This document shows, in pieces, positions 598-34,976 of a DNA stretch of 34,976 bases. A program made the position numbers and the translations under genes. The notes beneath the pieces were generated by a model. That model was not told the origin of the DNA. It ran no database searches and saw only the letters and a list, made by a program, of their open reading frames with translations. Positions within the stretch are counted from its first letter, which is position 1. Each line of letters opens with the position of its first letter. The stretch comes from a virus. Taxonomy: Duplodnaviria; Heunggongvirae; Uroviricota; Caudoviricetes. Where the stretch lies: IMG/VR virus record IMGVR_UViG_2671180676_000009. One strand, written 5' to 3'.

Positions 598-598
598 C

Positions 599-2474: not shown

Positions 2475-2520
2475 TTTTTCAACGATGGGCTTTGTATACC
2501 CGACGTTAAGAAAAAGTAGA

Positions 2521-2545: not shown

Positions 2546-2835
2546 GCTTTAAATGGGGCAATGGTAATGTTGAATCTCATCCCGGGACTCATGTCTGTTA
2601 ACTTATTATTTAGCTGGTGACTTGGTTATTTGCCTGATGTTTAAAATGTTTTCTTCCAGTACAATGTCCCTAAACACAATGAGTCTGCTTGTTATATTAT
2701 TAGCAGAGCTATTACGGCCAAAGTACAGCATAAGCTTTTAAAGCCAATCAACCAGTCATCAAGACAGACGGGGTTATTCATAAAAACTCTCCATGTGTGA
2801 TCCGATGGGGCCTGAAATTAAAGCTTTAATATAGC

Positions 2836-3048
2836 TCATGAAAGGTAAACATTGGCAGCTGAAGGGCCACGCAGACCATTTATCCGGCAAAATTCCACGC
2901 GTAATCCGGTGGTAATTTCTTCTGCATCGCGGAGATTGAGCGCTGAAACATGAAGCTGGACATCGATACGACCATCGGATGGGGTGATAAGACCCTTGCC
3001 GCTTTTGCCGTCAAAGGTTTTGACAATTCCTGTCATTTTACGGGACAA
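2836..3048 (-). CDS. cspF: Cold-shock protein family member CspF (70 aa)
   Basis: [26 protein letters not shown]... matches CspF/CspH branch lacking the canonical RNP aromatic motif. Confidence 0.9.
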
Positions 3049-3348
3049 AAAAATTCCTTAATACTGATAACTTGGCGCACTATACACACGTTCCTGAAGA
3101 AAGCTATAGTTTTTTGATGGGGTTGAAGATGGCTGGATGTCTAAAATAAACATTGCTTCATATGTTCAACTATGCGTTAATGATTGCGTCGGTTTGAAGA
3201 ACAGACGATATACGAAGTAGTTTACTAAAGCAGTTCTCATTTCAGGTGTTATTCACTTATTCCTTCTTTGAGTCTCTCCAATTAAGTACGAAGTCGTTTC
3301 TGTTATGCAAACCATTTATGCCGAAAGGCTCAAGTTAAGGAATGTAGA

Positions 3349-3564
3349 ATGTCAAATAAAATGACTGGTTTAGTAAAATGGTTTAACGCTGATAAAGGTT
3401 TCGGCTTTATTTCTCCTGTTGATGGTAGTAAAGATGTGTTTGTGCATTTTTCTGCGATTCAGAATGATAATTATCGAACCTTATTTGAAGGTCAAAAGGT
3501 TACCTTCTCTATAGAGAGTGGTGCTAAAGGTCCTGCAGCAGCAAATGTCATCATTACTGATTAA
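3349..3564 (+). CDS. cspB: Cold-shock protein CspB (71 aa)
   Basis: [38 protein letters not shown]...; long AT-rich leader upstream typical of cold-inducible csp genes. Confidence 0.95.
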
Positions 3565-3845
3565 AATTCATCGCTCGTCTGTATACGATAACGAAGAAGG
3601 CTGATGCCTGAGTAGAGATACGGACAGAGTAGTGAATATTGGATCTCTTTAATAAAAAGTAAGGAGGTCCAATACATGAAACAATGGCTAGCATATTTGG
3701 CAAAATCTTAATCAGGAAAAGTATGCTAACCATTGTGGTGAAGTGCAGGTTTGCTGCATGAATAGTTTTACAGCAGAAGCTAACTGCTGGCATGGCAAAA
3801 CAAAGTGCGTAAGTGGATGACTCCCACAAAAAGCACCACAATCTC

Positions 3846-3870
3846 AAACCCGCTCAGGCGGGTTTTTTAT
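3846..3870 (+). terminator. Rho-independent terminator
   Basis: Hairpin CCCGC-TCAG-GCGGG followed by TTTTTT at 3863-3868. Confidence 0.6.
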
Positions 3871-3927
3871 TATCTGCTTTAAATATATTATTAAAATATA
3901 AAAAATACTTGTTACTAATAAAATCAA

Positions 3928-4098
3928 TCAGGCTACAGCTTTAAGATTTGTCTGGAATACTTTGTTGCAATGAGGGCAGATCAAAAGGGCACCTTTTTGT
4001 ACTCTTGAAAAACTGTGTTCTGACTCTTGGGTGCAGTTTGGGCAGGAACATTTAACGAGATAATTACGGCGTGATTTTGAGTTTTTACGTTCTGACAT
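3928..4098 (-). CDS. Small C4 zinc-ribbon protein (56 aa), antisense to the late operon
   Basis: ATG at 4098 (minus) with AGGAAA 5 nt upstream; MSERKNSKSRRNYLVKCSCPNC-x18-CPHC (Cx2C...Cx2C) with basic N-terminus. Confidence 0.45.
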   Translation of the reverse strand: MSERKNSKSRRNYLVKCSCPNCTQESEHSFSRVQKGALLICPHCNKVFQTNLKAVA

Positions 4099-4317
4099 AG
4101 GCTTTTCCTGTATAAATGGCCGTATACAGTACACTAAATATGAAAACATTTCTCGTATTATTATTTTATATATGACTTTCTTTCAAAATAATTACCCACA
4201 TTTTTAATGTGTATGTTTTTTTAGCGCCGTTGAGAACAACGTGTGCTGTCAAAACTACCCCGTAGACTCCGATCTTTTCAAACATATTGCACCATCCGTG
4301 TACATCGGGGTGAGGAT

Positions 4318-4533
4318 ATGAAATCAATGGATAAGTTAACAACAGGTGTTGCCTATGGCACATCGGCGGGTAATGCTGGTTTCTGGGCATTGCAGTTACT
4401 CGATAAAGTAACTCCGTCACAGTGGGCTGCAATCGGTGTGCTGGGTAGCCTGGTTTTTGGCCTGCTGACGTATCTGACAAATCTTTATTTCAAGATTAAA
4501 GAAGACAGGCGTAAGGCTGCGAGAGGAGAGTAA
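4318..4533 (+). CDS. essQ: Holin, phage 21 S-type pinholin (71 aa) with dual-start motif MKSM
   Basis: [28 protein letters not shown]...[35 protein letters not shown]; RBS GGGGTGAGG before ATG; two TMDs. Confidence 0.9.
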
Positions 4534-4537
4534 TCCA

Positions 4538-4845
4538 ATGACTCAAGACTATGAACTGGTTGTGAAAGGAGTCCGTAATTTTGAGAATAAAGTTACGGTA
4601 ACTGTAGCCTTACAGGACAAAGAACGCTTTGACGGTGAAATTTTTGACCTGGATGTCGCCATGGACCGTGTTGAAGGAGCTGCGCTGGAGTTTTATGAGG
4701 CAGCAGCCAGAAGGAGCGTCCGGCAAGTCTTCCTGGAAGTAGCAGAAAAATTGTCAGAAAAAGTTGAGTCTTATCTGCAGCATCAGTACTCCTTTAAGAT
4801 TGAAAATCCTGCCAATAAGCACGAGCGTCCTCATCATAAATATCT

Positions 4846-4849
<4 letters not shown>
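4538..4849 (+). CDS. ydfR: YdfR-like protein (DUF1327) inserted between holin and endolysin (103 aa)
   Basis: ORF follows holin stop by 4 nt with GAGAGGAGAG RBS; matches Qin YdfR. Confidence 0.8.
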
Positions 4850-5873
<1,024 letters not shown>

Positions 5874-6234
5874 GGTAATATTAAATCGGAACATTTACAT
5901 CGCGGAATGTAAAATTTAAATAAAAAGGACTCTTCCATGAGCCAAAATTCCTGAAATCTTAAGGGTAAGATAAAAGGTCTTAATCAGAATGACACGTTTT
6001 ATTAATAAATAAAGCTATTCTTTCATTGCTGTGTTTTTCTTTACAAAAGTAATCCTTGCTATGGGTGGTTAATCATGCGTTAATGGTGTTCTGGTTTGTT
6101 ACAAATTTATCTGAAGCAGTCATTGTTATAATTTTATTATTTGTACCTCTTGAGATTTCCTTGTTGGTTTTTCTCTCTGATATTTTTTTCGGACCATTCT
6201 GCCCAAGGGCTAATTTCTTCAAAAGGTAATAATT

Positions 6235-6447
6235 ATGTCTAACAAAATGACTGGTTTAGTGAAATGGTTTAACCCTGAAAAAGGTTTTGGTTTCATCACG
6301 CCGAAAGATGGCAGCAAAGATGTGTTTGTCCATTTCTCAGCAATTCAGAGCAACGATTTCAAAACATTAACTGAGAATCAGGAAGTTGAATTTGGTATTG
6401 AGAACGGACCTAAAGGTCCTGCCGCTGTTCATGTAGTGGCGCTTTGA
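6235..6447 (+). CDS. cspI: Cold-shock protein CspI (70 aa)
   Basis: [42 protein letters not shown]...; long AT-rich 5' leader. Confidence 0.95.
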
Positions 6448-6652
6448 GGTAGACAATATTACAAACCATATTCACTTTAGATGCCCGTGTTGTCATGGTT
6501 CCCAGTATAGAACATCATCTTTTGATGTTTCTGACATGAATCCTTTCGGGGCAAAATGTATCTTTTGTAAATCAATGATGATTACATTTGATAATATTTC
6601 ACAATACTTAAATGCCAGCCGTCTGTCGTTGGATTTAAAAAAGTGAAAATGA

Positions 6653-6675
6653 AGGCTCCTTCGGGAGCTTTTTTG
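6653..6675 (+). terminator. Rho-independent terminator
   Basis: Hairpin GGCTCC-TTCG-GGAGCT followed by TTTTTT. Confidence 0.6.
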
Positions 6676-6718
6676 CTTGGTGTCTATTCGATGGATACTC
6701 ACATACTACGGTAACATC

Positions 6719-6949
6719 ATGAAAAAAATCATAGTTTTTTTTAACTCTGAACCAGCAGTGGTAGTGCCAGCGATGACTGGAGTTAACACCATCATGCGTG
6801 AATATCCAAATGGCGAAAAAACACACCTTACTGTAATGGCCGCAGGGTTTCCATCTCTGACCGGAGATCATAAAGTCATTTATGTAGCCGCGGATCGACA
6901 TGTTACTTCAGAAGAAATTCTGGAAGCAGCAATAAGGCTCTTGAGTTGA
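6719..6949 (+). CDS. Hypothetical small protein in the cold-shock locus (76 aa from MKKIIV; possibly ynfN/ymcE-like)
   Basis: ORF in the position occupied by ynfN in K-12 Qin (between cspI and gnsB); start chosen at first ATG after the terminator; weak RBS. Confidence 0.4.
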   Translation: MKKIIVFFNSEPAVVVPAMTGVNTIMREYPNGEKTHLTVMAAGFPSLTGDHKVIYVAADRHVTSEEILEAAIRLLS

Positions 6950-7120
6950 TTTGATGCTATTGCATTGATAATTCAGGAAAATTCTCTTTGTCTGCTTGTG
7001 TAAAATTTAGACTATCGTATGTTGATTATTGCGATGTTTCATCTTATCTTTTACACGTTTGCACCATATAATCGACTTACTGTGTAACTGGAAAGTCATA
7101 ACAGACTAAAAGAGGAAATG

Positions 7121-7294
7121 ATGAATATTGAAAACTTAAAAACAAAAGCAGAAGCAGATATTTCTGAATATATAACAAAAAAAATTATTGAACTTAAGAA
7201 AAAGACCGGGAAAGAAGTTACCAGTATTCAGTTTACCGCACGGGAAAAAATGACGGGTCTTGAAAGCTATGATGTCAAGATTAATTTAATCTGA
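7121..7294 (+). CDS. gnsB: GnsA/GnsB-family small protein (57 aa)
   Basis: MNIENLKTKAEADISEYITKKIIELKKKTGKEVTSIQFTAREKMTGLESYDVKINLI; GAGG 6 nt upstream; below the 60-aa cutoff of the ORF track. Confidence 0.7.
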   Translation: MNIENLKTKAEADISEYITKKIIELKKKTGKEVTSIQFTAREKMTGLESYDVKINLI

Positions 7295-7445
7295 TGTATT
7301 CAATAATAAAATTTATCCATAAACCTCGTTTTTACGGGGTTTTGTTATATTTGAATGGTTCCGAATATCTAAATCACAATTGTTGATGGTTTTTATTAAA
7401 CCAATGCAGTCCGGCTCAGGAGTGAGAGAAGCCGGACGTTATGGT

Positions 7446-7856
7446 TTAGCGTGGTAAGATCTGTGTAGTTTTCTGGATGCTTTCAGTAAATAGTAATGAA
7501 TTATCAAAGGTATAGTAATATCTTTTTTGTTCGTGGATATTTGTAACCCACCGAAAAACTCCTGCTTTAGCAAGGTTTCTTCTGTATTCCTGAAATGTGA
7601 TCTCTCTGGATTTCAGCTTATTAGAGGTCGTTTCTATAAGATGCCTATCCTTTGAAAATTTGACAGACACAATGTTTTTTAGGCCCTTTAATAACACTGT
7701 ATTATCATTTTTTAATACAATATGAACATTCTCTGTGGCTAAATAGTAAATGTAATGTGAGACATTGTGACGTTTTAGCTCAGAATAAAACCATTGATAG
7801 TTTAAATCGTTTCGAACTTTATCAAATATTTGTTTAAAAATGACTACCTGATCCAT
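7446..7856 (-). CDS. ydfO: YdfO-like DUF1398 protein (136 aa)
   Basis: [40 protein letters not shown]...; GGAAGG 7 nt upstream of ATG at 7856. Confidence 0.8.
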
Positions 7857-7913
7857 AGATAAACCTTCCATGTGATATGAGGGGGCGTAGTCTGCACGAT
7901 TATCTAAATTGCT

Positions 7914-8147
7914 TCAATCTGGTCTGACCTGTTTTCTGAGCAATTCAGTAATGTCACTCTTTTCTTTGTTTGCTTCAGAAGAAACTCTTTTTTCTGAGCA
8001 CAGTCTCCGGCGGCAGGCTTCAATGACCCAGGCTGAGAAATTCCCGGACCCTTTTTGCTCAAGAGCGATGTTAATTTGTTCAATCATTTGGTTAGGAAAG
8101 CGGATGTTGCGGGTTGTTGTTCTGCGGGTTCTGTTCTTCGTTGACAT
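7914..8147 (-). CDS. ynfO: Arc/Mnt-like ribbon-helix-helix protein (77 aa), homologue of the rightmost lambda ORF
   Basis: N-terminal basic tail then IRFPNQMIEQINIALEQKGS-GNFSAWVIEACRRRL (beta-strand/helix/helix pattern as in Arc); lies immediately beside cos. Confidence 0.7.
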   Translation of the reverse strand: MSTKNRTRRTTTRNIRFPNQMIEQINIALEQKGSGNFSAWVIEACRRRLCSEKRVSSEANKEKSDITELLRKQVRPD

Positions 8148-8346
8148 GAGGTTGCCCCGTATTCAGTGTCGCTGATTTGTATTGTCTGAAGTTGTTTTTA
8201 CGTTAAGTTGATGCAGATCAATTAATACGATACCTGCGTCATAATTGATTATTTGACGTGGTTTGATGGCCTCCACGCACGTTGTGATATGTAGATGATA
8301 ATCATTATCACTTTACGGGTCCTTTCCGGTGATCCGACAGGTTACG

Positions 8347-8358
8347 GGGCGGCGACCT
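8347..8358 (+). other. cos: cosN cohesive-end sequence GGGCGGCGACCT (12-nt lambda-type 5' overhang)
   Basis: Exact lambda left-end sequence GGGCGGCGACCTCGCGGGTTTTCGCTATTTATG preceded by the lambda right-end sequence ...CCGACAGGTTACG. Confidence 0.9.
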
Positions 8359-8530
8359 CGCGGGTTTTCGCTATTTATGAAAATTTTCCGGTTTAAGGTG
8401 TTTCCGTTCTTCTTCGTCGTAACTTAATGTTTTTATTTAAAATACCCCCTGAAAAGAAAGGAAACGACAGGTGCTGAAAACGAGCTTTTGGGCCTCTGTC
8501 GTTTCCTATCTCTGTTTTTGTCCGTGGAAT
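8359..8530 (+). promoter_or_regulatory. cosB: terminase small-subunit binding repeats R3, R2, R1 between cosN and Nu1
   Basis: CGTTTCC-type repeats at about 8399-8416 (R3), 8457-8471 (R2, inverted) and 8496-8512 (R1), as in lambda. Confidence 0.75.
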
Positions 8531-8535
8531 GAACA

Positions 8536-9055
8536 ATGGAAGTCAACAAAAAGCAGCTGGCTGACATTTTCGGTGCGAGTATCCGTACCATTCAGAACTG
8601 GCAGGAACAGGGAATGCCCGTTCTGCGAGGTGGTGGCAAGGGTAATGAGGTGCTTTATGACTCTGCCGCCGTTATAAGATGGTATGCCGAAAGGGATGCT
8701 GAAATTGAGAACGAAAAGCTGCGCCGGGAAGTTGAAGAACTGCGGCAGGCCAGCGAGACAGATCTCCAGCCAGGGACTATTGAGTACGAACGCCATCGAC
8801 TTACGCGTGCGCAGGCCGACGCACAGGAGCTGAAAAATGCCAGAGACTCCGCTGAAGTGGTGGAAACCGCATTCTGTACTTTCGTGCTGTCGCGGATCGC
8901 AGGTGAAATTGCCAGTATTCTCGACGGGATCCCCCTGTCGGTGCAGCGGCGTTTTCCGGAACTGGAAAACCGACATGTTGATTTCCTGAAACGGGATATC
9001 ATCAAAGCCATGAACAAAGCAGCCGCGCTGGATGAACTGATACCGGGGTTGCTGA

Positions 9056-9081
<26 letters not shown>
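8536..9081 (+). CDS. nu1: Terminase small subunit Nu1 (181 aa)
   Basis: MEVNKKQLADIFGASIRTIQNWQEQGMPVLRGGGKGNEVLYD... near-identical to lambda Nu1. Confidence 0.95.
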
Positions 9082-12762
<3,681 letters not shown>

Positions 12763-12782
<20 letters not shown>

Positions 12783-22475: not shown

Positions 22476-23219
22476 ATGACACAGGCAGAATCAGCGATTC
22501 TGGCGCACGCCCGGCGATGTGCGCCAGCGGAGTCGTGCGGCTTCGTGGTGAGAACGCCGGAAGGGGAAAGATATTTTCCCTGCGTGAATATCTCCGGTGA
22601 GCCGGAGGCGTATTTCCGGATGTCGCCGGAGGACTGGCTGCGGGCAGAGATGCAGGGTGAGATTGTGGCGCTGGTCCACAGCCACCCCGGTGGTCTGCCC
22701 TGGCTGAGTGAGGCTGACCGGCGGCTGCAGGTGCAGAGTGATTTGCCGTGGTGGCTGGTCTGCCGGGGGACGATTCATAAGTTCCGCTGTGTGCCGCATC
22801 TCACCGGGCGGCGCTTTGAACACGGGGTGACGGACTGTTACACGCTGTTCCGGGATGCTTATCATCTGGCGGGGATTGAGATGCCGGATTTTCATCGCGA
22901 GGATGACTGGTGGCGTCACGGTCAGAATCTCTATCTGGATAATCTGGAGGCCACAGGGCTGTATCAGGTGCCGTTGTCATCAGCACAACCGGGCGATGTG
23001 CTGCTGTGCTGTTTTGGTTCATCGGTGCCGAATCATGCCGCCATTTACTGTGGTGATGGCGAGCTGCTGCACCATATTCCTGAACAACTGAGCAAACGAG
23101 AGAGGTATACCGACAAATGGCAGCGACGCACACACTCCCTCTGGCGTCACCGGGCATGGCGCGCATCTGCCTTTACGGGGATTTACAACGATTTGGCCGC
23201 CGCATCGACCTTCGTGTGA
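22476..23219 (+). CDS. K: Tail tip assembly protein K with JAMM/MPN-type and NlpC/P60-type motifs (247 aa from first ATG; 199 aa if started at the internal ATG at 22620)
   Basis: HSHPGGLPWLSEAD (HxHx7Sx2D) and downstream DCYTLF...H motifs; overlaps I by about 100 nt. Confidence 0.85.
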   Translation: MTQAESAILAHARRCAPAESCGFVVRTPEGERYFPCVNISGEPEAYFRMSPEDWLRAEMQGEIVALVHSHPGGLPWLSEADRRLQVQSDLPWWLVCRGTIHKFRCVPHLTGRRFEHGVTDCYTLFRDAYHLAGIEMPDFHREDDWWRHGQNLYLDNLEATGLYQVPLSSAQPGDVLLCCFGSSVPNHAAIYCGDGELLHHIPEQLSKRERYTDKWQRRTHSLWRHRAWRASAFTGIYNDLAAASTFV

Positions 23220-23788
23220 AAACGGGGGCTGAAGCCATTCGGGCGCTGGCCACACAGCTCCCGGCGTTTCGTCAGAAACTGAGCGACGGCTGGTATCAGG
23301 TACGGATTGCCGGGCAGGATGTCAGCACGTCCGGATTAACGGCGCAGTTACATGAGACTCTGCCTGATGGCGCTGTGATTCATATTGTTCCCAGAGTCGC
23401 CGGGGCCAAGTCAGGTGGCGTATTCCAGATTGTCCTGGGGGCTGCCGCCATTGCCGGATCATTCTTTACCGCCGGGGCCACCCTTGCAGCATGGGGGGCA
23501 GCCATTGGGGCCGGTGGTATGACCGGCATCCTGTTTTCTCTCGGTGCCAGTATGGTGCTCGGTGGTGTGGCGCAGATGCTGGCACCGAAAGCCAGAACTC
23601 CCCGTACACAGACAACGGATAACGGCAAACAGAACACCTATTTCTCCTCACTGGATAACATGGTTGCCCAGGGCAATGTTCTGCCGGTTCTGTACGGTGA
23701 AATGCGCGTGGGGTCGCGGGTGGTCTCTCAGGAGATCAGCACGGCAGACGAAGGGGATGGTGGTCAGGTTGTGGTGATTGGTCGCTGA
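23117..23788 (+). CDS. I: Tail tip assembly protein I (223 aa)
   Basis: 223-aa ORF overlapping the K 3' end, as lambda gpI. Confidence 0.9.
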   Translation: MAATHTLPLASPGMARICLYGDLQRFGRRIDLRVKTGAEAIRALATQLPAFRQKLSDGWYQVRIAGQDVSTSGLTAQLHETLPDGAVIHIVPRVAGAKSGGVFQIVLGAAAIAGSFFTAGATLAAWGAAIGAGGMTGILFSLGASMVLGGVAQMLAPKARTPRTQTTDNGKQNTYFSSLDNMVAQGNVLPVLYGEMRVGSRVVSQEISTADEGDGGQVVVIGR

Positions 23789-23847
23789 TGAAAAACGTTT
23801 ATGTGAAACCGCCTCCGGGCGGTTTTGTCGTTTATGGAGCGTGAGGA

Positions 23848-26800
23848 ATGGGTAAAGGCAGCAGTAAGGGGCATACTCCGCGCGAAGCGAAGGACAACCT
23901 GAAGTCCACGCAGCTGCTGAGTGTGATCGATGCCATCAGCGAAGGGCCGGTTGAAGGTCCGGTGGATGGATTAAAAAGCGTGCTGCTGAACAGTACGCCA
24001 GTGCTGGACAGTGAGGGGAATACCAATATCTCCGGCGTCACGGTGGTGTTCCGGGCCGGTGAGCAGGAGCAGACACCGCCGGAGGGATTTGAATCCTCCG
24101 GCTCCGAGACGGTGCTGGGTACGGAAGTGAAATACGACACGCCGATCACCCGGACCATCACGTCGGCAAACATTGACCGACTGCGCTTTACCTTCGGTGT
24201 GCAGGCACTGGTGGAAACCACCTCAAAGGGGGACCGGAATCCGTCGGAAGTCCGCCTGCTGGTTCAGATACAGCGTAATGGTGGCTGGGTGACGGAAAAA
24301 GACATCACCATTAAAGGCAAAACCACCTCGCAGTATCTGGCCTCGGTGGTGGTGGATAACCTGCCGCCGCGCCCGTTTAATATCCGGATGCGCAGGATGA
24401 CGCCGGACAGCACCACAGACCAGTTGCAGAACAAAACGCTCTGGTCGTCATACACCGAAATCATCGATGTGAAACAGTGCTACCCGAACACGGCACTGGT
24501 CGGCGTACAGGTGGACTCGGAGCAGTTCGGTAGCCAGCAGGTGAGTCGTAATTATCATCTTCGCGGGCGCATTCTGCAGGTGCCGTCGAACTATAACCCG
24601 CAGACGCGACAATACAGCGGTATCTGGGACGGAACGTTAAAACCAGCATATAGCAACAACATGGCCTGGTGTCTGTGGAATATGCTGACCCATCCGCGCT
24701 ACGGCATGGGGAAACGTCTTGGTGCGGCGGATGTGGATAAATGGGCGCTGTATGTCATCGGCCAGTACTGCGACCAGTCGGTGCCGGACGGCTTTGGCGG
24801 CACGGAGCCGCGCATTACCTGTAATGCGTACCTGACCACACAGCGTAAGGCGTGGGATGTGCTCAGTGATTTCTGCTCGGCGATGCGCTGTATGCCGGTA
24901 TGGAACGGGCAGACGCTGACGTTCGTGCAGGACCGACCGTCGGATAAGGTGTGGACCTATAACCGCAGTAATGTGGTGATGCCGGATGATGGCGCGCCGT
25001 TCCGCTACAGCTTCAGCGCCCTGAAGGACCGCCATAATGCCGTTGAGGTGAACTGGATTGACCCGAACAACGGCTGGGAGACGGCGACAGAGCTTGTTGA
25101 AGATACGCAGGCCATTGCCTGTTACGGTCGTAATGTTATGAAGATGGATGCCTTTGGCTGTACCAGCCGGGGGCAGGCACACCGCGCCGGGCTGTGGCTG
25201 ATTAAAACGGAACTGCTGGAAACGCAGACCGTGGATTTCAGCGTGGGCGCAGAAGGACTTCGCCATGTGCCGGGCGATGTTATTGAAATCTGCGATGATG
25301 ACTATGCCGGTATCAGCACCGGCGGTCGCGTGCTGGCGGTGAACAGCCAGACCCGGACTCTGACGCTCGACCGTGAAATCACGCTGCCATCCTCCGGCAC
25401 CACGCTGATAAGCCTGGTTGACGGGCAGGGGAATCCGGTGAGCGTGGAGGTCCAGTCCGTCACTGACGGCGTGAAGGTGAAAGTGAGCCGTGTTCCTGAC
25501 GGCGTTGCCGAATACAGCGTGTGGGGACTGAAGCTGCCGACGCTGCGCCAGCGCCTGTTCCGCTGCGTGAGTATCCGTGAGAACGACGACGGCACGTATG
25601 CCATCACCGCCGTGCAGCATGTACCTGAAAAAGAGGCCATCGTGGATAACGGGGCGCACTTTGACGGCGACCAGAGCGGCACGGTGAATGGTGTCACGCC
25701 GCCAGCGGTGCAGCACCTGACCGCCGAAGTCACCGCAGACAGCGGGGAATATCAGGTGCTGGCGCGCTGGGACACGCCGAAGGTGGTGAAGGGCGTGAGC
25801 TTCCTGCTCCGTCTGACCGTAACAGCGGATGACGGCAGTGAGCGGCTGGTCAGCACGGCCCGGACGACGGAAACCACATACCGCTTCACGCAGCTGGCGC
25901 TGGGGAACTACAGGCTGACAGTCCGGGCGGTAAATGCGTGGGGGCAGCAGGGCGATCCGGCGTCGGTATCGTTCCGGATTGCCGCACCGGCAGCGCCGTC
26001 ACAGATTGAGCTGACGCCGGGCTATTTTCAGATAACCGCCACGCCGCATCTTGCGGTTTATGACCCGACGGTACAGTTTGAGTTCTGGTTCTCGGAAAAG
26101 CGGATTACCGATATCAGGCAGGTTGAAACCACAGCACGCTATCTTGGCACGGCGCTGTACTGGATAGCCGCCAGTATCAATATCAAACCGGGCCATGATT
26201 ATTACTTTTATATCCGCAGTGTGAACACCGTTGGCAAATCGGCATTCGTGGAGGCTGTTGGTCAGCCGAGTGATGATGCATCCGGTTATCTGGATTTTTT
26301 CAAAGGCGAGATAGGGAAAACCCATCTGGCTCAGGAGCTGTGGACGCAGATTGATAACGGTCAGCTTGCGCCTGACCTGGCTGAAATCAGGACGTCCATT
26401 ACGGATGTCAGCAATGAAATCACGCAGACCGTCAATAAGAAACTGGAAGACCAGAGTGCGGCAATTCAGCAGATACAGAAGGTTCAGGTTGATACAAATA
26501 ATAACCTGAACAGCATGTGGGCTGTGAAGCTGCAGCAGATGCAGGACGGACGCCTTTATATCGCGGGTATTGGTGCCGGTATTGAGAACACCCCTGACGG
26601 CATGCAGAGTCAGGTGCTGCTGGCGGCGGACAGGATTGCGATGGTTAATCCTGCGAATGGCAACACAAAACCGATGTTTGTTGGTCAGGGCGATCAGATA
26701 TTCATGAACGACGTGTTCCTGAAACGCCTGACGGCCCCCACCATTACCAGCGGTGGAAATCCACCGGCATTTTCCCTGACTCCGGACGGAAAGCTGACCG

Positions 26801-27345
26801 CTAAAAATGCGGATATCAGTGGCAGTGTGAATGCGAACGCCGGGACGCTCAACAATGTCACGGTAAATGAAAACTGTACGATTAAGGGCATGCTGGAGGC
26901 GACTCAGGTCAGAGGTGACTTCGTTAAAGCTGTATCCAAATCATTTCCGAAACAGGCTGGTACGTGGGGTAACACGGAAACACCAAACGGGACGGTTACA
27001 GTCACCATAAGCGATGATCATAACTTTGACCGTCAAATCATTATTCCGCCCATTATCTTTAACGGAATAGCGTATAGCGATCCGGGAAGTGGTAATAACC
27101 CGGGAGGTACAAGATACACGGGTTATGGTTTTGAAGTTCGCAAAAACGGTGTATTAATCGCATCCAGAGAAACTAAAGGGGCTATTCCCGGTAGCTACAG
27201 TGCGGTTATTGATATGCCGAGTGGCAGGGGAAGCGTCACTCTGGAGTTTAAGGTTTTCCATAAAGGCAATCAGTGGGCAGGTAATATCACCGACTGTACG
27301 GTGATTGTGACCAAAAAAGCGGCTTCAGGCATCAGTATTCGTTGA
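23848..27345 (+). CDS. J: Tail tip / host-specificity protein J (1165 aa)
   Basis: [41 protein letters not shown]...; lambda-like over most of its length but with a different, longer C-terminal segment. Confidence 0.9.
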
Positions 27346-27367
27346 AATATTTATAACCCCAATAAAT

Positions 27368-27392
27368 GGCGTCAGGAATGACGCCTTTTTTA
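27368..27392 (+). terminator. Rho-independent terminator after J
   Basis: GGCGTCA-GGAA-TGACGCC followed by TTTTTT. Confidence 0.7.
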
Positions 27393-27415
27393 TTGCAGAA
27401 AAGCGAGAGGTAATT

Positions 27416-28015
27416 ATGCGTAAAGTTTGTGCAGCCATTTTGTCCGCAGCCATTTGTCTGGCCGTATCCGGTGCGCCTGCATGGGCGTCTGAACATCAGT
27501 CCACGCTGAGCGCGGGGTATCTTCATGCCCGGACCAACGTTCCCGGCAGTGATGATCTGAACGGGATTAACGTGAAATACCGTTATGAGTTTACGGATAC
27601 GCTGGGGATGGTGACGTCATTCAGCTATGCAGGAGACAAGAATCGCCAGCTTACCCGTTACAGCGATACCCGCTGGCATGAAGATTCCGTGCGTAACCGC
27701 TGGTTCAGCGTGATGGCGGGGCCGTCTGTGCGCGTGAATGAATGGTTCAGTGCGTATGCGATGGCGGGCGTGGCTTACAGCCGTGTGTCGACTTTTTCCG
27801 GGGATTATCTCCGCGTAACTGACAACAAGGGGAAAACGCACGACGTGCTGACCGGAAGTGATGACGGTCGCCACAGCAACACGTCTCTGGCGTGGGGAGC
27901 TGGCGTGCAGTTTAACCCGACCGAATCCGTGGTTATTGATGTCGCTTATGAAGGTTCCGGCAGTGGTGACTGGCGCACTGACGGTTTCATCGTGGGTGTC
28001 GGTTATAAATTCTGA
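27416..28015 (+). CDS. lom: Lom outer-membrane protein (Ail/Lom family beta-barrel, 199 aa)
   Basis: Signal peptide [24 protein letters not shown]; C-terminal ...GVGYKF; AGAGG RBS. Confidence 0.9.
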
Positions 28016-28042
28016 TTAGCCAGGTAACACAGTGTTATGACA

Positions 28043-28068
28043 GCCCGCCGGTTCAGGCGGGCTTTTTT
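28043..28068 (+). terminator. Rho-independent terminator after lom
   Basis: GCCCGCC-GGTTCA-GGCGGGC followed by TTTTTT. Confidence 0.7.
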
Positions 28069-28079
28069 GTGGGGGGAAT

Positions 28080-31000
28080 ATGGCAGTACGGATTTCAGGT
28101 GTACTGAAAGATGGCGCAGGTAAGCCGATACAAAACTGCACCATTCAGCTAAAGGCCAGGCGCAACAGCACCACGGTGGTGGTGAACACAGTGGCCTCAG
28201 AAAACCCGGATGAAGCCGGGCGTTACACAATGGACGTCGAGTATGGTCAGTACAGCGTCAGTCTGTTGGTGGAAGGATTCCCGCCGTCACATGCCGGGAC
28301 CATCACCGTGTATGAAGATTCCCGACCCGGTACGCTGAATGATTTTCTCGGTGCCATGACGGAGGATGATGCCCGTCCGGAGGCTCTGCGCCGTTTTGAA
28401 CTGATGGTGGAAGAGGTGGCGCGTAACGCGTCCGCGGTGGCACAGAACACGGCAGCCGCGAAGAAGTCAGCCAGTGATGCCGGCACATCTGCCAGTGAGG
28501 CGGCAACCCATGCGACTGATGCTGCAGGCTCAGCGCGTGCAGCCAGCACGTCAGCCGGACAGGCCGCGACGTCGGCTCAGGAGGCGTCTTCCAGCGCAGG
28601 AACGGCATCAACAAAGGCCACTGAAGCATCAAAAAGTGCTGCCGCTGCAGAGTCCTCAAAAAGCGCGGCGGCCACCAGTGCCGGTGCCGCGAAAACGTCA
28701 GAAACGAATGCTGCAGCGTCACAAAAATCAGCAGCCACTTCTGCATCCACTGCGACGACGAAAGCGTCAGAAGCCGCCACTTCAGCCCGGGATGCGGCGG
28801 CCTCCAAAGAGGCGGCAAAATCATCAGAAACGAACGCCTCCACAAGCGCCAGCAGTGCAGCCTCCTCGGCAACGGCGGCAGGAAATTCCGTGAAGGCGGC
28901 AAAAACGTCCGAGACGAATGCTAAGTCTTCTGAAACGGCAGCGGAACAGAGCGCCTCAGCTGCGGCAGACTCTGAGACAACAGCTGCATCATCGGCCCGT
29001 GAGGCGTCCATTAAGGCAGAGGAGGCAGCAGTCAGTGCCACCGCCGCCGGAAAATCGGCAGAAAGCGCCGCATCATCCGCTTCAACAGCCACAACGAAGG
29101 CTGGCGAAGCCACTGAACAGGCCAGCGCAGCAGCGAGGTCTGCTTCCGCAGCGAAGACATCCGAAACGAACGCGAAAGCGTCGGAAACCAGCGCAGAATC
29201 CTCAAAAACGGCTGCCGCATCGTCCGCCAGTTCGGCGGCGTCATCGGCATCATCGGCGTCTGCTTCAAAAGATGAGGCGACCAGACAGGCGTCAGCAGCG
29301 AGGGGCAGCGCCACGACGGCATCCACGAAGGCGACAGAGGCTGCTGGCAGTGCGGCAGCGGCAGCACAGAGCAAAACGGGCAGAGGATATTGCATCCGCC
29401 GTGGCGCTTGAGGATGCGAGCACGACGAAAAAGGGGATAGTACAGCTCAGTAGTGCGACTAACAGCACTTCCGAGTCACTGGCGGCAACACCAAAAGCCG
29501 TTAAGGCCGCGTATGACCTGGCTAACGGGAAATACACCGCACAGGATGCAACGACAGCACAGAAAGGGATAATCCAGCTAAGCAGCGCGACCAACAGCAC
29601 GTCTGAAACGCTTGCCGCGACACCAAAGGCAGTAAAAGCAGAAACGTCTGCAGAAAGATCAGAACGGTGCGGATATCCCTGGCAAAGATACCTTTACGAA
29701 AAATATTGGTGCCTGCCGTGCCTTCGGTGGGTCAGTAAGCACAACAACAGGAAACTGGACGACTGCACAGTTTATCGAGTGGCTGGATTCTCAGGGAGCA
29801 TTTAACCATCCATACTGGATGTGCAAGGGTTCCTGGTCTTATGGCAATAATAAAATCATTACTGATACTGACTGCGGTAATATTCATCTCGCCGGAGCTG
29901 TCATTGAAGTAATGGGGATAAAGTCAGCGATGACGATCCGCATTACCACACCGACCACCTCCACTGGTGGTGGAACAACTAACGCCCAGTTTACCTATAT
30001 TAATCACGGAACAGATTATTCACCTGGCTGGCGAAGGGACTATAACTCCAGAAATAAGCCAACGGCATCAGAGATCGGGGCGTTACCGTCAGGTGGAACA
30101 GCAGTATCATCAGTTAATCTGGCTTCAAAAGGTCGGGTAACCGCGCTGACAGACAATACGCAGGGGGCAGCAGGTCTTGAGTTATACGAGGTGTATAACA
30201 ACGGATATCCAACAGCGTATGGAAATATCATTCACCTGAAAGGGATGACAGCCGTTGGCGAAGGTGAGTTACTCATCGGCTGGAGTGGTACAAGCGGTGC
30301 TCATGCTCCGGCATTTATTCGTTCACGACGGGATACGACCGACGCAAACTGGTCGCCGTGGGCGCAGCTTTACACCTCGGCTCATCCTCCTGCAGAGTTT
30401 TATCCAGTCGGTGCACCAATCCCGTGGCCATCAGATACCGTTCCGTCTGGCTATGCCCTGATGCAGGGGCAGACTTTTGACAAATCTGCATACCCGAAAC
30501 TTGCAGTTGCTTATCCGTCAGGCGTGATCCCTGATATGCGTGGCTGGATGATTAAGGGCAAGCCCGCCAGTGGTCGGGCCGTATTATCTCAGGAACAGGA
30601 CGGCATTAAATCGCACACCCACAGCGCCAGCGCATCCAGTACGGATTTGGGGACGAAAACCACATCGTCGTTTGATTACGGAACCAAATCCACGAATAAC
30701 ACCGGGGCGCATACCCATAGTATTAGCGGGACCGCAAATAGTGCCGGTGCGCACCAACACAAGAGTTCCGGTGCATTTGGTGGCACGAACACGAGCATTT
30801 TCCCTAATGGTTATACCGCGATTTCAAATCTAAGCGCGGGGATTATGAGCACAACAAGCGGTAGTGGCCAGACTCGTAATGCAGGGAAGACATCATCAGA
30901 TGGTGCTCATACCCACTCGCTGTCCGGCACTGCTGCAAGCGCAGGCGCACATGCACATACTGTCGGTATTGGTGCTCATACGCACTCCGTTGCGATTGGT

Positions 31001-31093
31001 TCACATGGACACACCATCACCGTTAACGCTGCTGGTAACGCGGAAAACACCGTCAAAAACATCGCATTTAACTATATTGTGAGGCTTGCATAA
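28080..31093 (+). pseudogene. stf: Side tail fibre gene stf split across three reading frames (junctions near 29373-29376 and 29654-29656)
   Basis: Frame 0 (28080-29411) has the Stf N-terminus and A/S/T-rich repeat; frame 1 has AKRAEDIASAVALEDASTTKKGIVQLSSATNSTSE...ATPKAVKA; frame 2 continues to the His-rich Stf C-terminus ...[14 protein letters not shown]. Confidence 0.75.
28430..29370 (+). repeat. Low-complexity Ala/Ser/Thr-rich repetitive segment of Stf with recurring KTSETNA-type units
   Basis: About 310 codons dominated by A, S, T, K, E with repeated AAKTSETNA / AKSSETNA motifs; yields long spurious ORFs in other frames and on the opposite strand. Confidence 0.7.
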
Positions 31094-31668
31094 TGGCATT
31101 CAGAATGAGTGAACAACCACGGACCATAAAAATTTATAATCTGCTGGCCGGAACTAATGAATTTATTGGTGAAGGTGATGCATATATTCCGCCTCATACA
31201 GGTCTGCCAGCAAACAGTACCGATATTGCACCGCCAGATATTCCGGCTGGCTTCGTGGCTGTTTTCAACAGTGATGAGTCATCGTGGCATCTCGTTGAAG
31301 ATCATCGGGGTAAAACTGTTTATGACGTGGCTTCCGGCGACGCGTTATTTATTTCTGAACTCGGTCCGTTACCGGAAAATGTTACCTGGTTATCGCCGGA
31401 AGGGGAGTTTCAGAAGTGGAACGGCACAGCCTGGGTGAAGGATACGGAAGCAGAAAAACTGTTCCGGATCCGGGAGGCGGAAGAAACAAAAAACAACCTG
31501 ATGCAGGTAGCCAGTGAGCATATTGCGCCGCTTCAGGATGCTGCAGATCTGGAAATTGCAACGGAGGAAGAAATCTCGTTGCTGGAAGCATGGAAAAAGT
31601 ATCGGGTATTGCTGAACCGTGTTGATACGTCAACTGCACAGGATATTGAATGGCCAGCACTGCCGTAG
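31093..31668 (+). CDS. tfa: Tail fibre assembly chaperone Tfa (191 aa)
   Basis: ATG overlaps stf stop (TAATG); [48 protein letters not shown]... as Tfa proteins. Confidence 0.9.
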
Positions 31669-31765
31669 GGTAAAACATATAAATTCTATAATTAGATGTA
31701 TCTTTCCATTTACGGCAAGGAAGGGGGCTTGGAAGACGTAAAGCATCTCACACCGAGATTATTTT

Positions 31766-32356
31766 TTATATGTCAGGTGTCTGAAGTTTTGCTTTGGCTC
31801 TTAAAATGGTTTGCCGCGAGGTTTTGAATTCCCGGGCAATGGCACTTATACTTACACCTGACTTAATTCGTTCGAATACCGCCTGTTTCTGTTCTTCATT
31901 TAACACAGGTGGTCGACCAAAACGTTTCCCTGCGCCGCGGGCTCTTACTATCCCGGAATGAGTGCGTTCAAGTAAAAGGTCTCGTTCAAATTCAGCGACT
32001 GCTGAAATTACTTGCATCATCATTTTTCCTGTTGGACTGGTCAGGTCAATGCCCCCCAATGCTAAGCAATGCACTCTGATACCTGTTTCGGTCAGTTGTT
32101 CCACTGTTTTCCTGATATCCATTGCATTACAACCAAGGCGATCCAGTTTTGTCACAATCAATTGATCACCACATTTCAGGCGAGCAAGCAACCGGTTAAA
32201 ACCAGGACGCTCACTGGTTGCTGCTGAGCCGCTAATGTGTTCTTCGATTATTTGCTGAGGTTTGATTTTAAAACCTGCACTTTCGATTTCCCGGCGTTGA
32301 TTTTCGGTGGTCTGATCCAGCGTTGATATCCGACAGTAAGCAAAAATTTGAGACAT
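31766..32356 (-). CDS. pin: Serine recombinase, Pin/Gin/Hin-family DNA invertase (196 aa)
   Basis: [20 protein letters not shown]... with catalytic Ser in CRIST, resolvase core and C-terminal HTH; convergent with tfa. Confidence 0.9.
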
Positions 32357-32672
32357 AGTGAGACTCTATACGAAATTGGTGTTCATATCATAATGCATCT
32401 CAGAAAATAATTATGATTATTTTTGTGCATATTTGTATGTACACGTTCGAAAATAAACGAATGCGTATGCAACCCCGTAATTTTGGTGAGACCCAAAATC
32501 GATTTTGTGAAAAATGGCTTTAACTCGGTTTGTTTTTCGAGTTCCGGGCGGACTCAAGGAAGAAGAATAGTGTTGCGTGTTATTTTAACCAGATTTCAAG
32601 TTGTTTGGTCGTGGAAAAGTGGAGCAAAATGTTGTTAAAGTGGAAAAATGATAAAAAAGTAAGTTTATTATA

Positions 32673-32906
32673 TTACATTTTACCATTTAAATTTTGGTTG
32701 TCTTTAAGAACTGATATCGCTGTTTGTAATAATTCTTTGTTATCCAGCCATGATTTTTTCTTTATGTTTCCTTCAATGTAATCAAGCAATGTTCTGGTAT
32801 TGATAGGTCTTCCCTGTTTTGCTACTTCCACTACAGCATCCCCTAGGATAATTCTTACTTCAGGAAGCTGCGCAGGGAACCACTTTAGGGTGTCTTTTGA
32901 TTTCAT
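32673..32906 (-). CDS. ydfK: YdfK/YnaE-family small protein (77 aa)
   Basis: MKSKDTLKWFPAQLPEVRIILGDAVVEVAKQGRPINTRTLLDYIEGNIKKKSWLD...; AAGGAA 7 nt upstream of ATG at 32906. Confidence 0.8.
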   Translation of the reverse strand: MKSKDTLKWFPAQLPEVRIILGDAVVEVAKQGRPINTRTLLDYIEGNIKKKSWLDNKELLQTAISVLKDNQNLNGKM

Positions 32907-33692
32907 GAAGATATTCCTTAAAATATTATTGATTTTCATTGCGATATTGTATGTCTGATTCAGGATATGTTGACTTATACATCGGTTTTGTCTGGGTTAT
33001 TGGATATGCCAATCCCTAATTTTATTAGGGCATGACTAAAAATGCTGAATATGATAAGGAGAGATGTGATTATCAGTATGCTGTTCATATAGCCTCGAAT
33101 TAGTAATGTGTTATATATGATATAGTTGACAATTTTTATCTTGGGTGTTCTTAAAGTTCGTAGATAAACATTGTCGTTTCAGGTATACAGGAATGCTAAC
33201 AGGTGGCAGCAAAAATCAGGCGGTTTATGGCGCAAGCTGAAGCGGCAACTGCAAACTATCTTATGCAGAGACTCTACACGGATTGGGTTTAAAAGTATAC
33301 ATAGATAACAGTTTTTATCTGAAAAAGAAAAATATCAAGGTGATATAGCCTATATGCCTTTGATGCGGAGGAATGAATGTGATGGGAGTGATGTATCTGA
33401 ATAGTTGAAAAACCGCAGACACGCCTTATGCAAGAACGTGCTGCGATTGGCTGGTAAATTTTTCGATAGTGTGAGTATTGAATGATTTCTAGCCGTTCTT
33501 GATTTTACGCATAAATCCATGAAAAAACTACTTATCTGTTGGGGAGTTTTTTTGGGGCATATATGGGACAGAAATAGGCCCCAGATAGACACTGAGATCG
33601 AACTTAGGATGCTTTTTAAAAAAATGCAACTATCTGAAAAAACCTAGAAAACGCCAAGGAAACCACAGGATGGGAAAAAACACCTGTGAATT

Positions 33693-34976
33693 ATGGATTT
33701 CCAGTTATATTCGCTCGGCGCAGCGTTAGTGTTTCATGAAATATTTTTTCCTGAATCATCAACGGCAATGGCGTTAATTCTGGCAATGGGAACCTACGGT
33801 GCAGGTTATGTGGCGCGTATTGTCGGAGCATTTATTTTCGGCAAAATGGGCGACAGAATAGGGCGTAAAAAAGTGCTCTTTATTACCATCACCATGATGG
33901 GGATCTGTACCACCTTAATTGGTGTGTTACCGACCTATGCACAGATTGGTGTTTTTGCACCCATCTTGCTGGTGACGTTGCGTATTATTCAGGGGTTGGG
34001 TGCAGGTGCGGAAATTTCCGGTGCCGGTACGATGCTGGCGGAATATGCGCCAAAAGGTAAGCGCGGAATTATCTCCTCATTTGTGGCTATGGGAACTAAC
34101 TGCGGAACCTTGAGCGCAACGGCAATCTGGGCCTTTATGTTCTTCATTCTCAGTAAAGAGGAACTGCTGGCGTGGGGATGGCGTATACCGTTCCTGGCGA
34201 GTGTTGTCGTGATGGTCTTTGCTATCTGGTTGCGTATGAATCTGAAAGAAAGCCCGGTCTTTGAGAAGGTTAACGACAGTAACCAACCGACAGCAAAACC
34301 TGCACCTGCTGGTAGCATGTTCCAGAGCAAATCCTTCTGGCTGGCAACAGGGCTGCGTTTTGGTCAGGCGGGTAACTCCGGGTTAATTCAGACTTTCCTT
34401 GCAGGCTATTTAGTGCAGACGTTATTGTTTAACAAAGCAATTCCAACAGATGCATTGATGATCAGTTCGATTCTCGGCTTTATGACCATTCCGTTCCTTG
34501 GTTGGTTATCCGATAAAATTGGTCGCCGGATCCCGTATATTATTATGAATACCTCCGCGATTGTGCTGGCATGGCCAATGCTTTCTATCATTGTAGATAA
34601 AAGCTATGCCCCGAGCACCATTATGGTTGCACTGATTGTGATTCATAACTGTGCGGTGCTGGGATTATTTGCTCTGGAAAACATTACCATGGCAGAAATG
34701 TTCGGCTGTAAAAACCGCTTTACCCGGATGGCTATTTCTAAAGAAATTGGTGGTCTTATCGCTTCCGGTTTTGGTCCTATCCTGGCGGGTATTTTCTGCA
34801 CCATGACGGAATCCTGGTATCCGATCGCCATTATGATCATGGCATATTCAGTGATTGGTTTAATCTCTGCGCTGAAAATGCCAGAGGTGAAAGACCGTGA
34901 TTTAAGTGCGCTGGAAGACGCTGCGGAAGATCAACCGCGTGTTGTAAGAGCTGCGCAACCTTCCAGAAGTCTGTAA
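33693..34976 (+). CDS. ydfJ: MFS metabolite:H+ symporter-family transporter, apparently N-terminally truncated (427 aa)
   Basis: ORF begins inside the conserved TM1 motif (MDFQLYSLGAALVFHEIFFPE); in-frame stop 6 nt upstream; 12-TM MFS features downstream (GDRIGRKK, RIIQGLGAGAE). Confidence 0.7.
   Translation: MDFQLYSLGAALVFHEIFFPESSTAMALILAMGTYGAGYVARIVGAFIFGKMGDRIGRKKVLFITITMMGICTTLIGVLPTYAQIGVFAPILLVTLRIIQGLGAGAEISGAGTMLAEYAPKGKRGIISSFVAMGTNCGTLSATAIWAFMFFILSKEELLAWGWRIPFLASVVVMVFAIWLRMNLKESPVFEKVNDSNQPTAKPAPAGSMFQSKSFWLATGLRFGQAGNSGLIQTFLAGYLVQTLLFNKAIPTDALMISSILGFMTIPFLGWLSDKIGRRIPYIIMNTSAIVLAWPMLSIIVDKSYAPSTIMVALIVIHNCAVLGLFALENITMAEMFGCKNRFTRMAISKEIGGLIASGFGPILAGIFCTMTESWYPIAIMIMAYSVIGLISALKMPEVKDRDLSALEDAAEDQPRVVRAAQPSRSL

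What the first reader, a model, noticed from the sequence alone, without database searches (positions are those of the whole stretch)
33600..33720. Prophage/host junction truncates an MFS transporter gene
The transporter ORF starts at an ATG in the middle of the family's conserved TM1 motif (MDFQLYSLGAALVFHEIFFPE), with an in-frame stop 6 nt upstream. No frame upstream encodes the missing N-terminal 25-35 residues or the first half of TM1, so the gene's 5' end was most likely displaced by prophage integration, with the att core near 33.69 kb.
Basis: inference. Interest (0 to 1): 0.5.

Follow-up and report, generated by a model that had tools for sequence, protein, structure and literature searches.

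The report
Qin-type prophage junction inside ydfJ
This is the right-hand end of a Qin-type lambda-like prophage that integrated inside the E. coli transporter gene ydfJ and cut off its first 28 codons; the junction is real, but it is well known and already published.

Summary
Window 33693-34976 is the 3' 1284 nt of ydfJ, an MHS-family MFS transporter gene. It is 426/427 aa identical to residues 29-455 of the intact 455-aa YdfJ found in E. coli strains with an uninterrupted rspA-rspB-ydfJ-ydfI locus. Homology to that locus starts at window 33687; everything upstream is prophage (ynfT, ydfK, pinQ, tfaQ, tail fibre and so on).

The attachment core is TGAATTATGGATTTC (33687-33701). Its partner, TGAATTTATGGATTTC, sits at the other prophage end in related genomes, 37 bp from a tyrosine integrase and right after rspB plus the missing 84-nt ydfJ 5' piece. 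The block identical between the phage and host versions is TTATGGATTTC (33691-33701).

The missing N-terminus is not encoded anywhere in the window. Orthologues in other Enterobacteriaceae genera all carry it, so the long form is ancestral. Of 5426 complete E. coli genomes, 2009 have the uninterrupted site.

Ramisetty and Sudhakari 2019 describe exactly this truncation ("lacking 28 codons"). Nakamura et al. 2021 defined the 18/19-bp att sequence of ydfJ prophages. Interest is low.

The parts
33693..34976 (+). 3' part of ydfJ (codons 29-455 plus stop) of an MHS-family MFS transporter; a pseudogene remnant lacking 28 N-terminal codons
   Evidence: 426/427 aa identical to residues 29-455 of intact YdfJ of strain U1. 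TIGR00883 scores 453.5 bits, starting at profile position 7. PGAP annotates the same sequence in K-12, O157, O169 and JP538 as 'incomplete; missing N-terminus'.
33687..33701 (.). attR core TGAATTATGGATTTC. It reaches 33704 (TGAATTATGGATTTCCAG, 18 bp) if the imperfect extension is counted
   Evidence: attB is TGAATTTATGGATTTC(CAG) at L003 3001-3019. attL is TGAATTTATGGATTTC(AAG) at L004 2589-2607. The two halves of the split attB query overlap by 19 nt, positions 112-130. The core occurs once in the window; 0.07 matches are expected by chance at up to 2 mismatches.
33691..33701 (.). TTATGGATTTC, the 11-bp block identical in the phage-derived and host-derived versions of the core. Strand exchange must fall inside it (inference)
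   Evidence: attR keeps the phage form TGAATT-ATGG in K-12, O157:H7, O169:H41 and the window, although the phage arms differ. attL keeps the host form TGAATTTATGG in three genomes.
33687..33689 (+). TGA stop in frame with the ydfJ remnant. It lies in the phage-derived half of the core and blocks any translational fusion from phage DNA
   Evidence: Read directly from the sequence. In attB the same TGA is out of frame (CTT GAA TTT ATG) because the host copy has one more T.
33089..33686 (.). Non-coding right arm of the prophage (the P-arm side of attP), between ynfT and the core
   Evidence: Identical in K-12 Qin. About 94% identity back to position 33553 in the O157:H7 ydfJ prophage, and 93.6% back to 33413 in the O169:H41 one. 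No Rfam family at gathering score. No promoter-like site on the + strand after 32897-32924.
32975..33088 (-). ynfT (YnaM/YnfT family small protein), a prophage gene
   Evidence: ORF found; annotated at the same offset in K-12 and JP538.
32673..32906 (-). ydfK (cold shock protein YdfK), a prophage gene
   Evidence: ORF found (an 88-aa ORF runs from an upstream ATG); annotated as 234 nt in K-12 and JP538.
31766..32356 (-). pinQ, a serine invertase of the prophage
   Evidence: Pfam Resolvase 2.5e-36 and HTH_7 2e-11; annotated pinQ in K-12 and JP538.
1..33686 (+). Late half of a Qin-type lambdoid prophage (rem, ydfU, Q antiterminator, lysis genes, terminase, head, tail, tail fibre, tfaQ). The window starts inside the prophage
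   Evidence: Window 1-12000 is 99.8% identical to a prophage in ARS-C101 annotated with these genes. That prophage continues about 15.4 kb further left (window position 1 maps to L004 18001) to int, xis and the attL core at L004 2589-2604 next to rspB.

Best explanation
The site is the attR junction of a Qin-type (PPydfJ) lambdoid prophage.

How it arose. A phage tyrosine integrase recombined the phage attP with a bacterial attB that lies inside codons 26-33 of ydfJ. These codons encode the conserved TM1 motif L-E-F-M-D-F-Q. The gene was split in two:
- The first 84 nt, together with any promoter and read-through from rspAB (inferred), stayed at attL beside rspB and the integrase gene.
- The remaining 1284 nt lie here at attR.

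What the remnant looks like. Its ATG is simply Met29 of the native protein. The TGA two codons upstream belongs to the phage half of the core, which has one T fewer than the host half.

Likely consequences (inferred, not shown):
- The remnant has lost its native promoter and ribosome-binding site, its cytoplasmic N-terminus and the first part of TM1, so it is probably non-functional.
- Because the crossover falls in an 11-bp identity block, precise excision would rebuild an intact ydfJ.
For: - Homology to the uninterrupted rspB-ydfJ-ydfI locus begins at window 33687.
- The remnant is 426/427 aa identical to residues 29-455 of the intact protein.
- The core is duplicated at attL in ARS-C101, O103:H2 CEC12044 and CFSAN064036. 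It is followed 37 bp later by the stop of an integrase gene (Arm-DNA-bind_2 plus Phage_integrase domains) and then by an excisionase.
- The attB query splits into positions 1-130 and 112-241 in interrupted genomes, a 19-nt overlap. 2009 of 5426 genomes are uninterrupted.
- 76 of 80 species-representative loci match from query residue 1-7, with 79-99% identity; most are from other Enterobacteriaceae genera. All 26 full-length N-termini among the first 30 listed carry the invariant GWLGTALEFMDFQLYSLGAALVFHEI, so the long form is ancestral.
- Published: Qin integration at the 5' end of ydfJ causes promoter loss and loss of 28 codons (PMC6379469). ydfJ is listed as the Qin insertion site in strains W, K-12, B and Crooks (PMC3032704). 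An 18/19-bp att sequence of PPydfJ was defined from an attP PCR amplicon (PMC8112680, S7 Fig legend).
Against: - The other att copy and the integrase are not in this window. They were seen only in related genomes, and no complete genome in the collection matches the window end to end (best is 97.5% over 20000-34976).
- Loss of function of the remnant was not tested. The ORF is still fully open, and a preprint lists ydfJ among genes whose RNA changes on DicC induction (PMC11430063), so it is transcribed to some degree.
Confidence: 0.97

Rival explanations
1. The 427-aa ORF is the genuine full-length gene and ATG 33693 is its native start. On this view the 455-aa form in other strains is an N-terminal extension or an annotation artefact.
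For: The ORF is open and begins with ATG. It still passes the TIGR00883 cut-off. From my own recollection, not checked here: it was long annotated as a 427-aa protein in K-12.
Against: - The 28 extra residues are conserved across Enterobacteriaceae genera.
- They align to the start of the MHS, ShiA, ProP and MFS_1 profiles.
- The DNA upstream of 33687 is phage DNA, unrelated to the rspB-ydfJ spacer.
- PGAP flags the gene as missing its N-terminus.
- No Shine-Dalgarno-like sequence is evident within about 15 nt of the ATG (my reading).
Confidence: 0.01
2. The truncation came from a deletion, an IS element or illegitimate recombination next to a prophage, not from integrase-mediated site-specific insertion into ydfJ.
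For: IS elements do disturb this neighbourhood in some strains: IS1 sits in rspB in strain 203740 and near ydfJ in strain 4848.
Against: - No host sequence is lost. attL plus attR reconstitute attB exactly, with a short duplicated core.
- A tyrosine integrase and an excisionase sit next to attL.
- Prophages with diverged arms (O157, O169, O103) use the very same junction.
- attP has been recovered experimentally for a ydfJ prophage (PMC8112680).
Confidence: 0.01
3. Integration is not inactivating. The remnant would be expressed from a phage-end promoter as a functional 427-aa transporter, as Rac does for ttcA and e14 for icd, where the phage supplies a replacement end.
For: - The ORF is intact, with only 1 aa difference from an uninterrupted allele.
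- ydfJ RNA responds to DicC in K-12.
- Phage-supplied gene ends are known for Rac/ttcA and e14/icd (PMC6379469).
Against: - An in-frame TGA lies two codons upstream, so no phage-encoded replacement N-terminus exists.
- No + strand promoter-like site lies between 32925 and 33693.
- No Shine-Dalgarno-like sequence is evident within about 15 nt of the ATG (my reading).
- The invariant first part of TM1 (AAVSGWLGTALEF) is gone.
- High sequence identity may simply reflect recent or repeated integration.
Confidence: 0.05

Closest known systems
Qin cryptic prophage of E. coli K-12 and its attR junction in ydfJ (pseudogene ydfJ')
   Same: - Sequence across 33300-34100 is 99.8% identical to K-12; across the aligned 33560-33800 it is base-for-base identical.
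- Same gene order: tail fibre, tfaQ, pinQ, ydfK, ynfT, ydfJ'.
- Same 28-codon loss as published (PMC6379469).
   Different: K-12 Qin is a degraded remnant: its tail-fibre CDS is annotated as partial, missing its N-terminus, and from my own recollection it spans only about 20 kb. The window carries the full late region (terminase, head, tail, J), as in strains W and ARS-C101.
PPydfJ prophages of STEC (Sp11/Sp12 of O157:H7 Sakai, PPydfJ of O26:H11 11368), with an 18/19-bp att sequence
   Same: Same integration site and same core. The O157:H7 attR reads ...tgaattATGGATTTCCAG, like the window. My 18/19-bp extended core matches the published length (PMC8112680).
   Different: The STEC prophages carry effector genes, and a DinI-like gene sits next to attR. 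Their arms are only about 94% identical to the window, and only from 33553 onward.
Lambda-type integration into a coding sequence: Rac in ttcA, e14 in icd
   Same: A tyrosine integrase with an arm-binding domain, a short core inside a gene, and attL/attR flanking a lambdoid prophage.
   Different: Rac and e14 supply a substitute gene end, so the host gene stays functional (PMC6379469). Here the phage side supplies a stop codon and no replacement N-terminus.

Membership tests
Qin / PPydfJ prophage attR junction | The host flank is the 3' part of ydfJ, continuous with the uninterrupted allele from the core onward | tested here: met
   Alignment with U1 and 203740 is identical from 33691 (33687 with a 1-nt gap); 426/427 aa identity.
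Qin / PPydfJ prophage attR junction | An empty site (attB) exists in strains without the prophage | tested here: met
   2009 of 5426 complete E. coli genomes cover the attB query without interruption. Annotated rspB-ydfJ(1368 nt)-ydfI loci are seen.
Qin / PPydfJ prophage attR junction | A second copy of the core lies at the opposite prophage end, next to an integrase and beside the ydfJ 5' fragment and rspB | tested here: met
   Seen in ARS-C101, O103:H2 CEC12044 and CFSAN064036. It is outside this window, so it was not seen in the window's own genome.
Qin / PPydfJ prophage attR junction | A lambda-type tyrosine integrase (arm-binding plus catalytic domains) and an excisionase | tested here: met
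   Arm-DNA-bind_2 5.5e-24, Phage_integrase 5.8e-18, DUF1233 excisionase 2e-31, on the ARS-C101 copy.
Qin / PPydfJ prophage attR junction | Prophage genes ynfT, ydfK, pinQ, tfaQ and tail fibre directly inside attR | tested here: met
   ORFs; matching annotation in K-12 and JP538.
Qin / PPydfJ prophage attR junction | Excision and integration activity (attP formation) | not testable with these tools
   Published for PPydfJ-R of O26:H11 strain 11368 by PCR of attP (PMC8112680). Unknown for this prophage.
MHS family of MFS transporters (TIGR00883) | Whole-protein score above the curated cut-off | tested here: met
   453.5 bits against a cut-off of 443.45.
MHS family of MFS transporters (TIGR00883) | Complete N-terminus including all of TM1 | tested here: not met
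   The match starts at profile position 7. The intact form starts at position 1 (its residue 23). MFS_1 alignment of the remnant starts only at profile position 33.

The most novel reading that the evidence does not exclude
In strains with a complete Qin-type prophage and an intact integrase and excisionase, the insertion could act as a reversible switch ('active lysogeny'). Excision would rebuild ydfJ and re-join it to rspAB, turning a sugar-acid uptake and catabolism cluster on in a subpopulation. That could explain why the remnant ORF stays perfectly open. Nothing here tests this.
Probability: 0.05. Interest if true: 0.4.

Novelty: already known. Interest (0 to 1): 0.07.

Why it matters
It matters little beyond correct annotation.
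- The ORF at 33693-34976 should be called a ydfJ pseudogene remnant at the prophage attR, not a 427-aa transporter.
- The prophage boundary can be set at 33687-33701.
- The case shows that a tool-free reading of an ORF start inside a conserved TM1 motif, with an adjacent stop codon, correctly located a prophage junction.
- Biologically it confirms that ydfJ is a very common integration hotspot: about 62% of complete E. coli genomes are occupied. The insertion separates ydfJ-ydfI from rspAB.

Tried and rejected
- Other att copy in the window: only one match to the core, even at 2 mismatches. The window starts inside the prophage, so attL is simply not included.
- Missing N-terminus elsewhere in the window: searched by tblastn and blastn-short; only chance hits.
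- Promoter upstream of the remnant: no promoter-like site on the + strand between 32925 and 33693. The one terminator-like site is on the - strand and is no more than shuffles give.
- Structured RNAs between pinQ and ydfJ: only sub-threshold Rfam hits (CssrB 25 bits against 76 gathering; a mir-263 hit that is certainly chance).
- Arm-type integrase sites: in a reconstructed attP (window 33401-33701 plus L004 phage side), the only exact 9-mer repeat was TGAAAAAAC, at -167 and -52. That is too little to call.
- TM1 boundaries from a solved structure: no PDB relative at E <= 1e-10. Kyte-Doolittle hydropathy was not sharp enough to set the boundaries, so I relied on profile coordinates.
- Exact source genome: no complete genome in the collection matches the whole window.
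- Papers linking rspAB-ydfJ-ydfI to L-gulonate catabolism: the held library gave nothing usable. That link rests on my memory only and is not used as evidence.

Full report
**Observation**

The ORF at 33693-34976 (+) starts with ATG and encodes MDFQLYSLGAALVFHEIFFPE... It has an in-frame TGA at 33687-33689. The window ends exactly at the ORF's stop codon.

The product is an MHS-family MFS transporter: TIGR00883 scores 453.5 bits against a cut-off of 443.45. The match starts only at profile position 7. An intact 455-aa allele matches from profile position 1 at its residue 23, and Pfam MFS_1 aligns from profile position 2 at residue 21 of that allele.

The three frames upstream of the ATG are full of stops. 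The missing residues are not encoded anywhere in the 35-kb window.

**What lies on each side**

Megablast of 33300-34100 against 5426 complete E. coli genomes gave two kinds of match:
- 2572 genomes share the whole stretch.
- A large class matches only from query position 388, which is window 33687.

In that second class (strains U1 and 203740) the annotation is rspA, rspB, a 1368-nt ydfJ and ydfI, with no prophage. The alignment shows identity from 33691 onward, or from 33687 with a 1-nt gap. Upstream there is no similarity.

In K-12 the sequence is identical to the window across the aligned 33560-33800. The annotation there is tail-fibre fragment, tfaQ, pinQ, ydfK, ynfT and then ydfJ, flagged 'incomplete; missing N-terminus'.

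The remnant is 426/427 aa identical to residues 29-455 of the U1 protein.

**The other end**

The window starts inside the prophage, at rem. Its first 12 kb are 99.8% identical to a prophage in strain ARS-C101. That prophage continues about 15.4 kb further left (window position 1 maps to L004 18001) to excisionase, integrase and then rspB.

Between rspB and the integrase lies the missing piece:
- The rspB-ydfJ spacer.
- The first 84 nt of ydfJ.
- The core TGAATTTATGGATTTC (L004 2589-2604).
- Phage DNA (AAGAGTCAT...), with the integrase stop codon 37 bp after the core.

A 36-codon ORF (MTIEKHERSTKDLVKAAVSGWLGTALEFMDFKSHAC*) remains there. The integrase has Arm-DNA-bind_2 and Phage_integrase domains, and the neighbouring gene is a DUF1233 excisionase.

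**The core**

| Site | Sequence | Location |
|---|---|---|
| attB | gcgctTGAATTTATGGATTTCcag | L003 3001-3016 |
| attL | same host form, followed by aag | L004 2589-2604 |
| attR | cacctgTGAATTATGGATTTCcag | window 33687-33701 |

attR has one T fewer than attB and attL. The shorter form is found in K-12, O157:H7 and O169:H41 although their phage arms differ. The longer form is found in all three attL copies examined. The one-base difference is therefore between attP and attB, not a later mutation.

The crossover must lie in the 11-bp identity block TTATGGATTTC (33691-33701); this is my inference.

When the uninterrupted attB region is used as a query, interrupted genomes match as two pieces, positions 1-130 and 112-241. 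The 19-nt overlap agrees with the '18- or 19-bp att sequence' published for ydfJ prophages (PMC8112680).

The phage form of the core puts its TGA in frame with the remnant. In attB the same TGA is out of frame.

**Polarity**

One representative genome per species was scanned with the intact protein. Of the 80 loci kept, 76 match from query residue 1-7, at 79-99% identity; most are from other Enterobacteriaceae genera. Every full-length N-terminus among the first 30 listed (26 loci) carries the invariant N-terminal stretch ...AAVSGWLGTALEFMDFQLYSLGAALVFHEI.

Only three loci match residues 29-455 alone: the E. coli representative, E. ruysiae, and a contig filed under a Caldithrix MAG. The fourth exception (L036) matches from residue 1 but lies close to a contig end, so my fixed-position translation missed its start. 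The long form is therefore ancestral and the 427-aa form is derived.

The 11-bp block is exactly conserved in 38 of 79 orthologue loci. The full 16-bp core is conserved in only 2.

**Frequency**

2009 of 5426 complete E. coli genomes (37%) have the uninterrupted site. About 47% share this particular Qin-type right arm. An earlier survey found Qin in 48% of 638 strains (PMC6379469).

**Mechanism**

Shown:
- Site-specific insertion of a lambdoid prophage into codons 26-33 of ydfJ.
- Conservative junctions with a short duplicated core.
- An integrase and excisionase next to attL.

Inferred:
- The remnant has lost its promoter context and ribosome-binding site. No + strand promoter-like site lies in the last 770 nt of phage DNA. 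No Shine-Dalgarno-like sequence is evident within about 15 nt of the ATG (my reading).
- It has also lost its N-terminal tail and the first part of TM1, so it is most likely non-functional.
- Precise excision would restore the gene.

Not tested: whether this prophage still excises, and whether the remnant is translated. A preprint lists ydfJ among Qin-region genes whose RNA changes after DicC induction (PMC11430063), so some transcription occurs in K-12.

**Comparison with the literature**

This is a published case:
- The E. coli W genome paper lists ydfJ as the Qin insertion site in strains W, K-12, B and Crooks (PMC3032704).
- The SE11 paper places a lambda-like prophage at this locus together with Sp11-Sp12 of O157 Sakai and Qin (PMC2608844).
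- Nakamura et al. 2021 defined the att sequence from an attP amplicon (PMC8112680).

Unlike Rac/ttcA and e14/icd, the phage does not supply a replacement gene end (direct reading).

**Verdict**

The case is already known and of low interest. The only refinements here are:
- The exact coordinates in this window: core 33687-33701, identity block 33691-33701.
- The one-base attP/attB difference, which creates the in-frame stop.
- An updated occupancy figure across 5426 genomes.

Noticed in passing
window 28080-31093: The tail-fibre gene is split over three reading frames (ORFs 28080-29411, 28918-29805, 29819-31093). The intact gene in strain JP538 is 3075 nt (L009 8282-11356). The window copy is 61 nt shorter, with a break near nt 1297 and 18 gap positions further on. 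It is probably a pseudogene or carries sequencing errors, so this prophage may not make infectious particles.
   Followed up: partly
window 1-34976: No complete E. coli genome in the collection matches the window end to end. Positions 1-12000 are 99.8% identical to ARS-C101, but the best match to 20000-34976 is only 97.5%, in two pieces. The prophage is a mosaic of Qin-type modules.
   Followed up: partly
L013 (SMXE01000224.1, 'MAG: Caldithrix sp.'): A contig filed under a Caldithrix metagenome-assembled genome carries a truncated ydfJ (residues 29-455) that is 100% identical at the protein level to the E. coli U1 query. It is almost certainly an E. coli contaminant contig in that bin.
   Followed up: no
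L015 (Escherichia ruysiae NZ_CABVLQ010000001.1): The E. ruysiae representative genome also matches only residues 29-455 of YdfJ. The same integration site therefore appears to be occupied outside E. coli proper. The junction itself was not inspected.
   Followed up: no
L004 2512-2622 (ARS-C101 attL): A 36-codon ORF remains at attL. It consists of the first 31 ydfJ codons fused to 5 phage-encoded codons (MTIEKHERSTKDLVKAAVSGWLGTALEFMDFKSHAC*). It presumably still sits behind the native ydfJ ribosome-binding site and rspAB transcription. It is not annotated.
   Followed up: no
L004 11419-13932 (ARS-C101 prophage early region, outside the window): The early region of the related prophage carries a QueH-like gene, a hypothetical gene and a KwaB-like (Kiwa anti-phage) domain protein, followed by a truncated ISNCY transposase. 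This looks like a defence or moron cargo island.
   Followed up: no
window 33308-33445 (+): A weak, sub-threshold Rfam match to CssrB (a Shigella chromosomal sRNA): 25.3 bits against 76 gathering, E = 0.025. It lies in the non-coding prophage arm upstream of ynfT and ydfK. It is probably chance or a distant remnant.
   Followed up: no
window 27900-32500: pinQ encodes a full-length serine invertase (196 aa; Resolvase and HTH_7 domains, N-terminal domain matched end to end). However, the tail-fibre and tfaQ region shows only short imperfect inverted repeats (17-20 nt, 80-88% complementary) and no alternative tail-fibre cassette. An invertible segment is not evident.
   Followed up: partly
L002 1071-2866 (strain 203740): In this strain ydfJ is uninterrupted, but rspB is split by an IS1 insertion. 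The same cluster is disrupted by a different mobile element.
   Followed up: no
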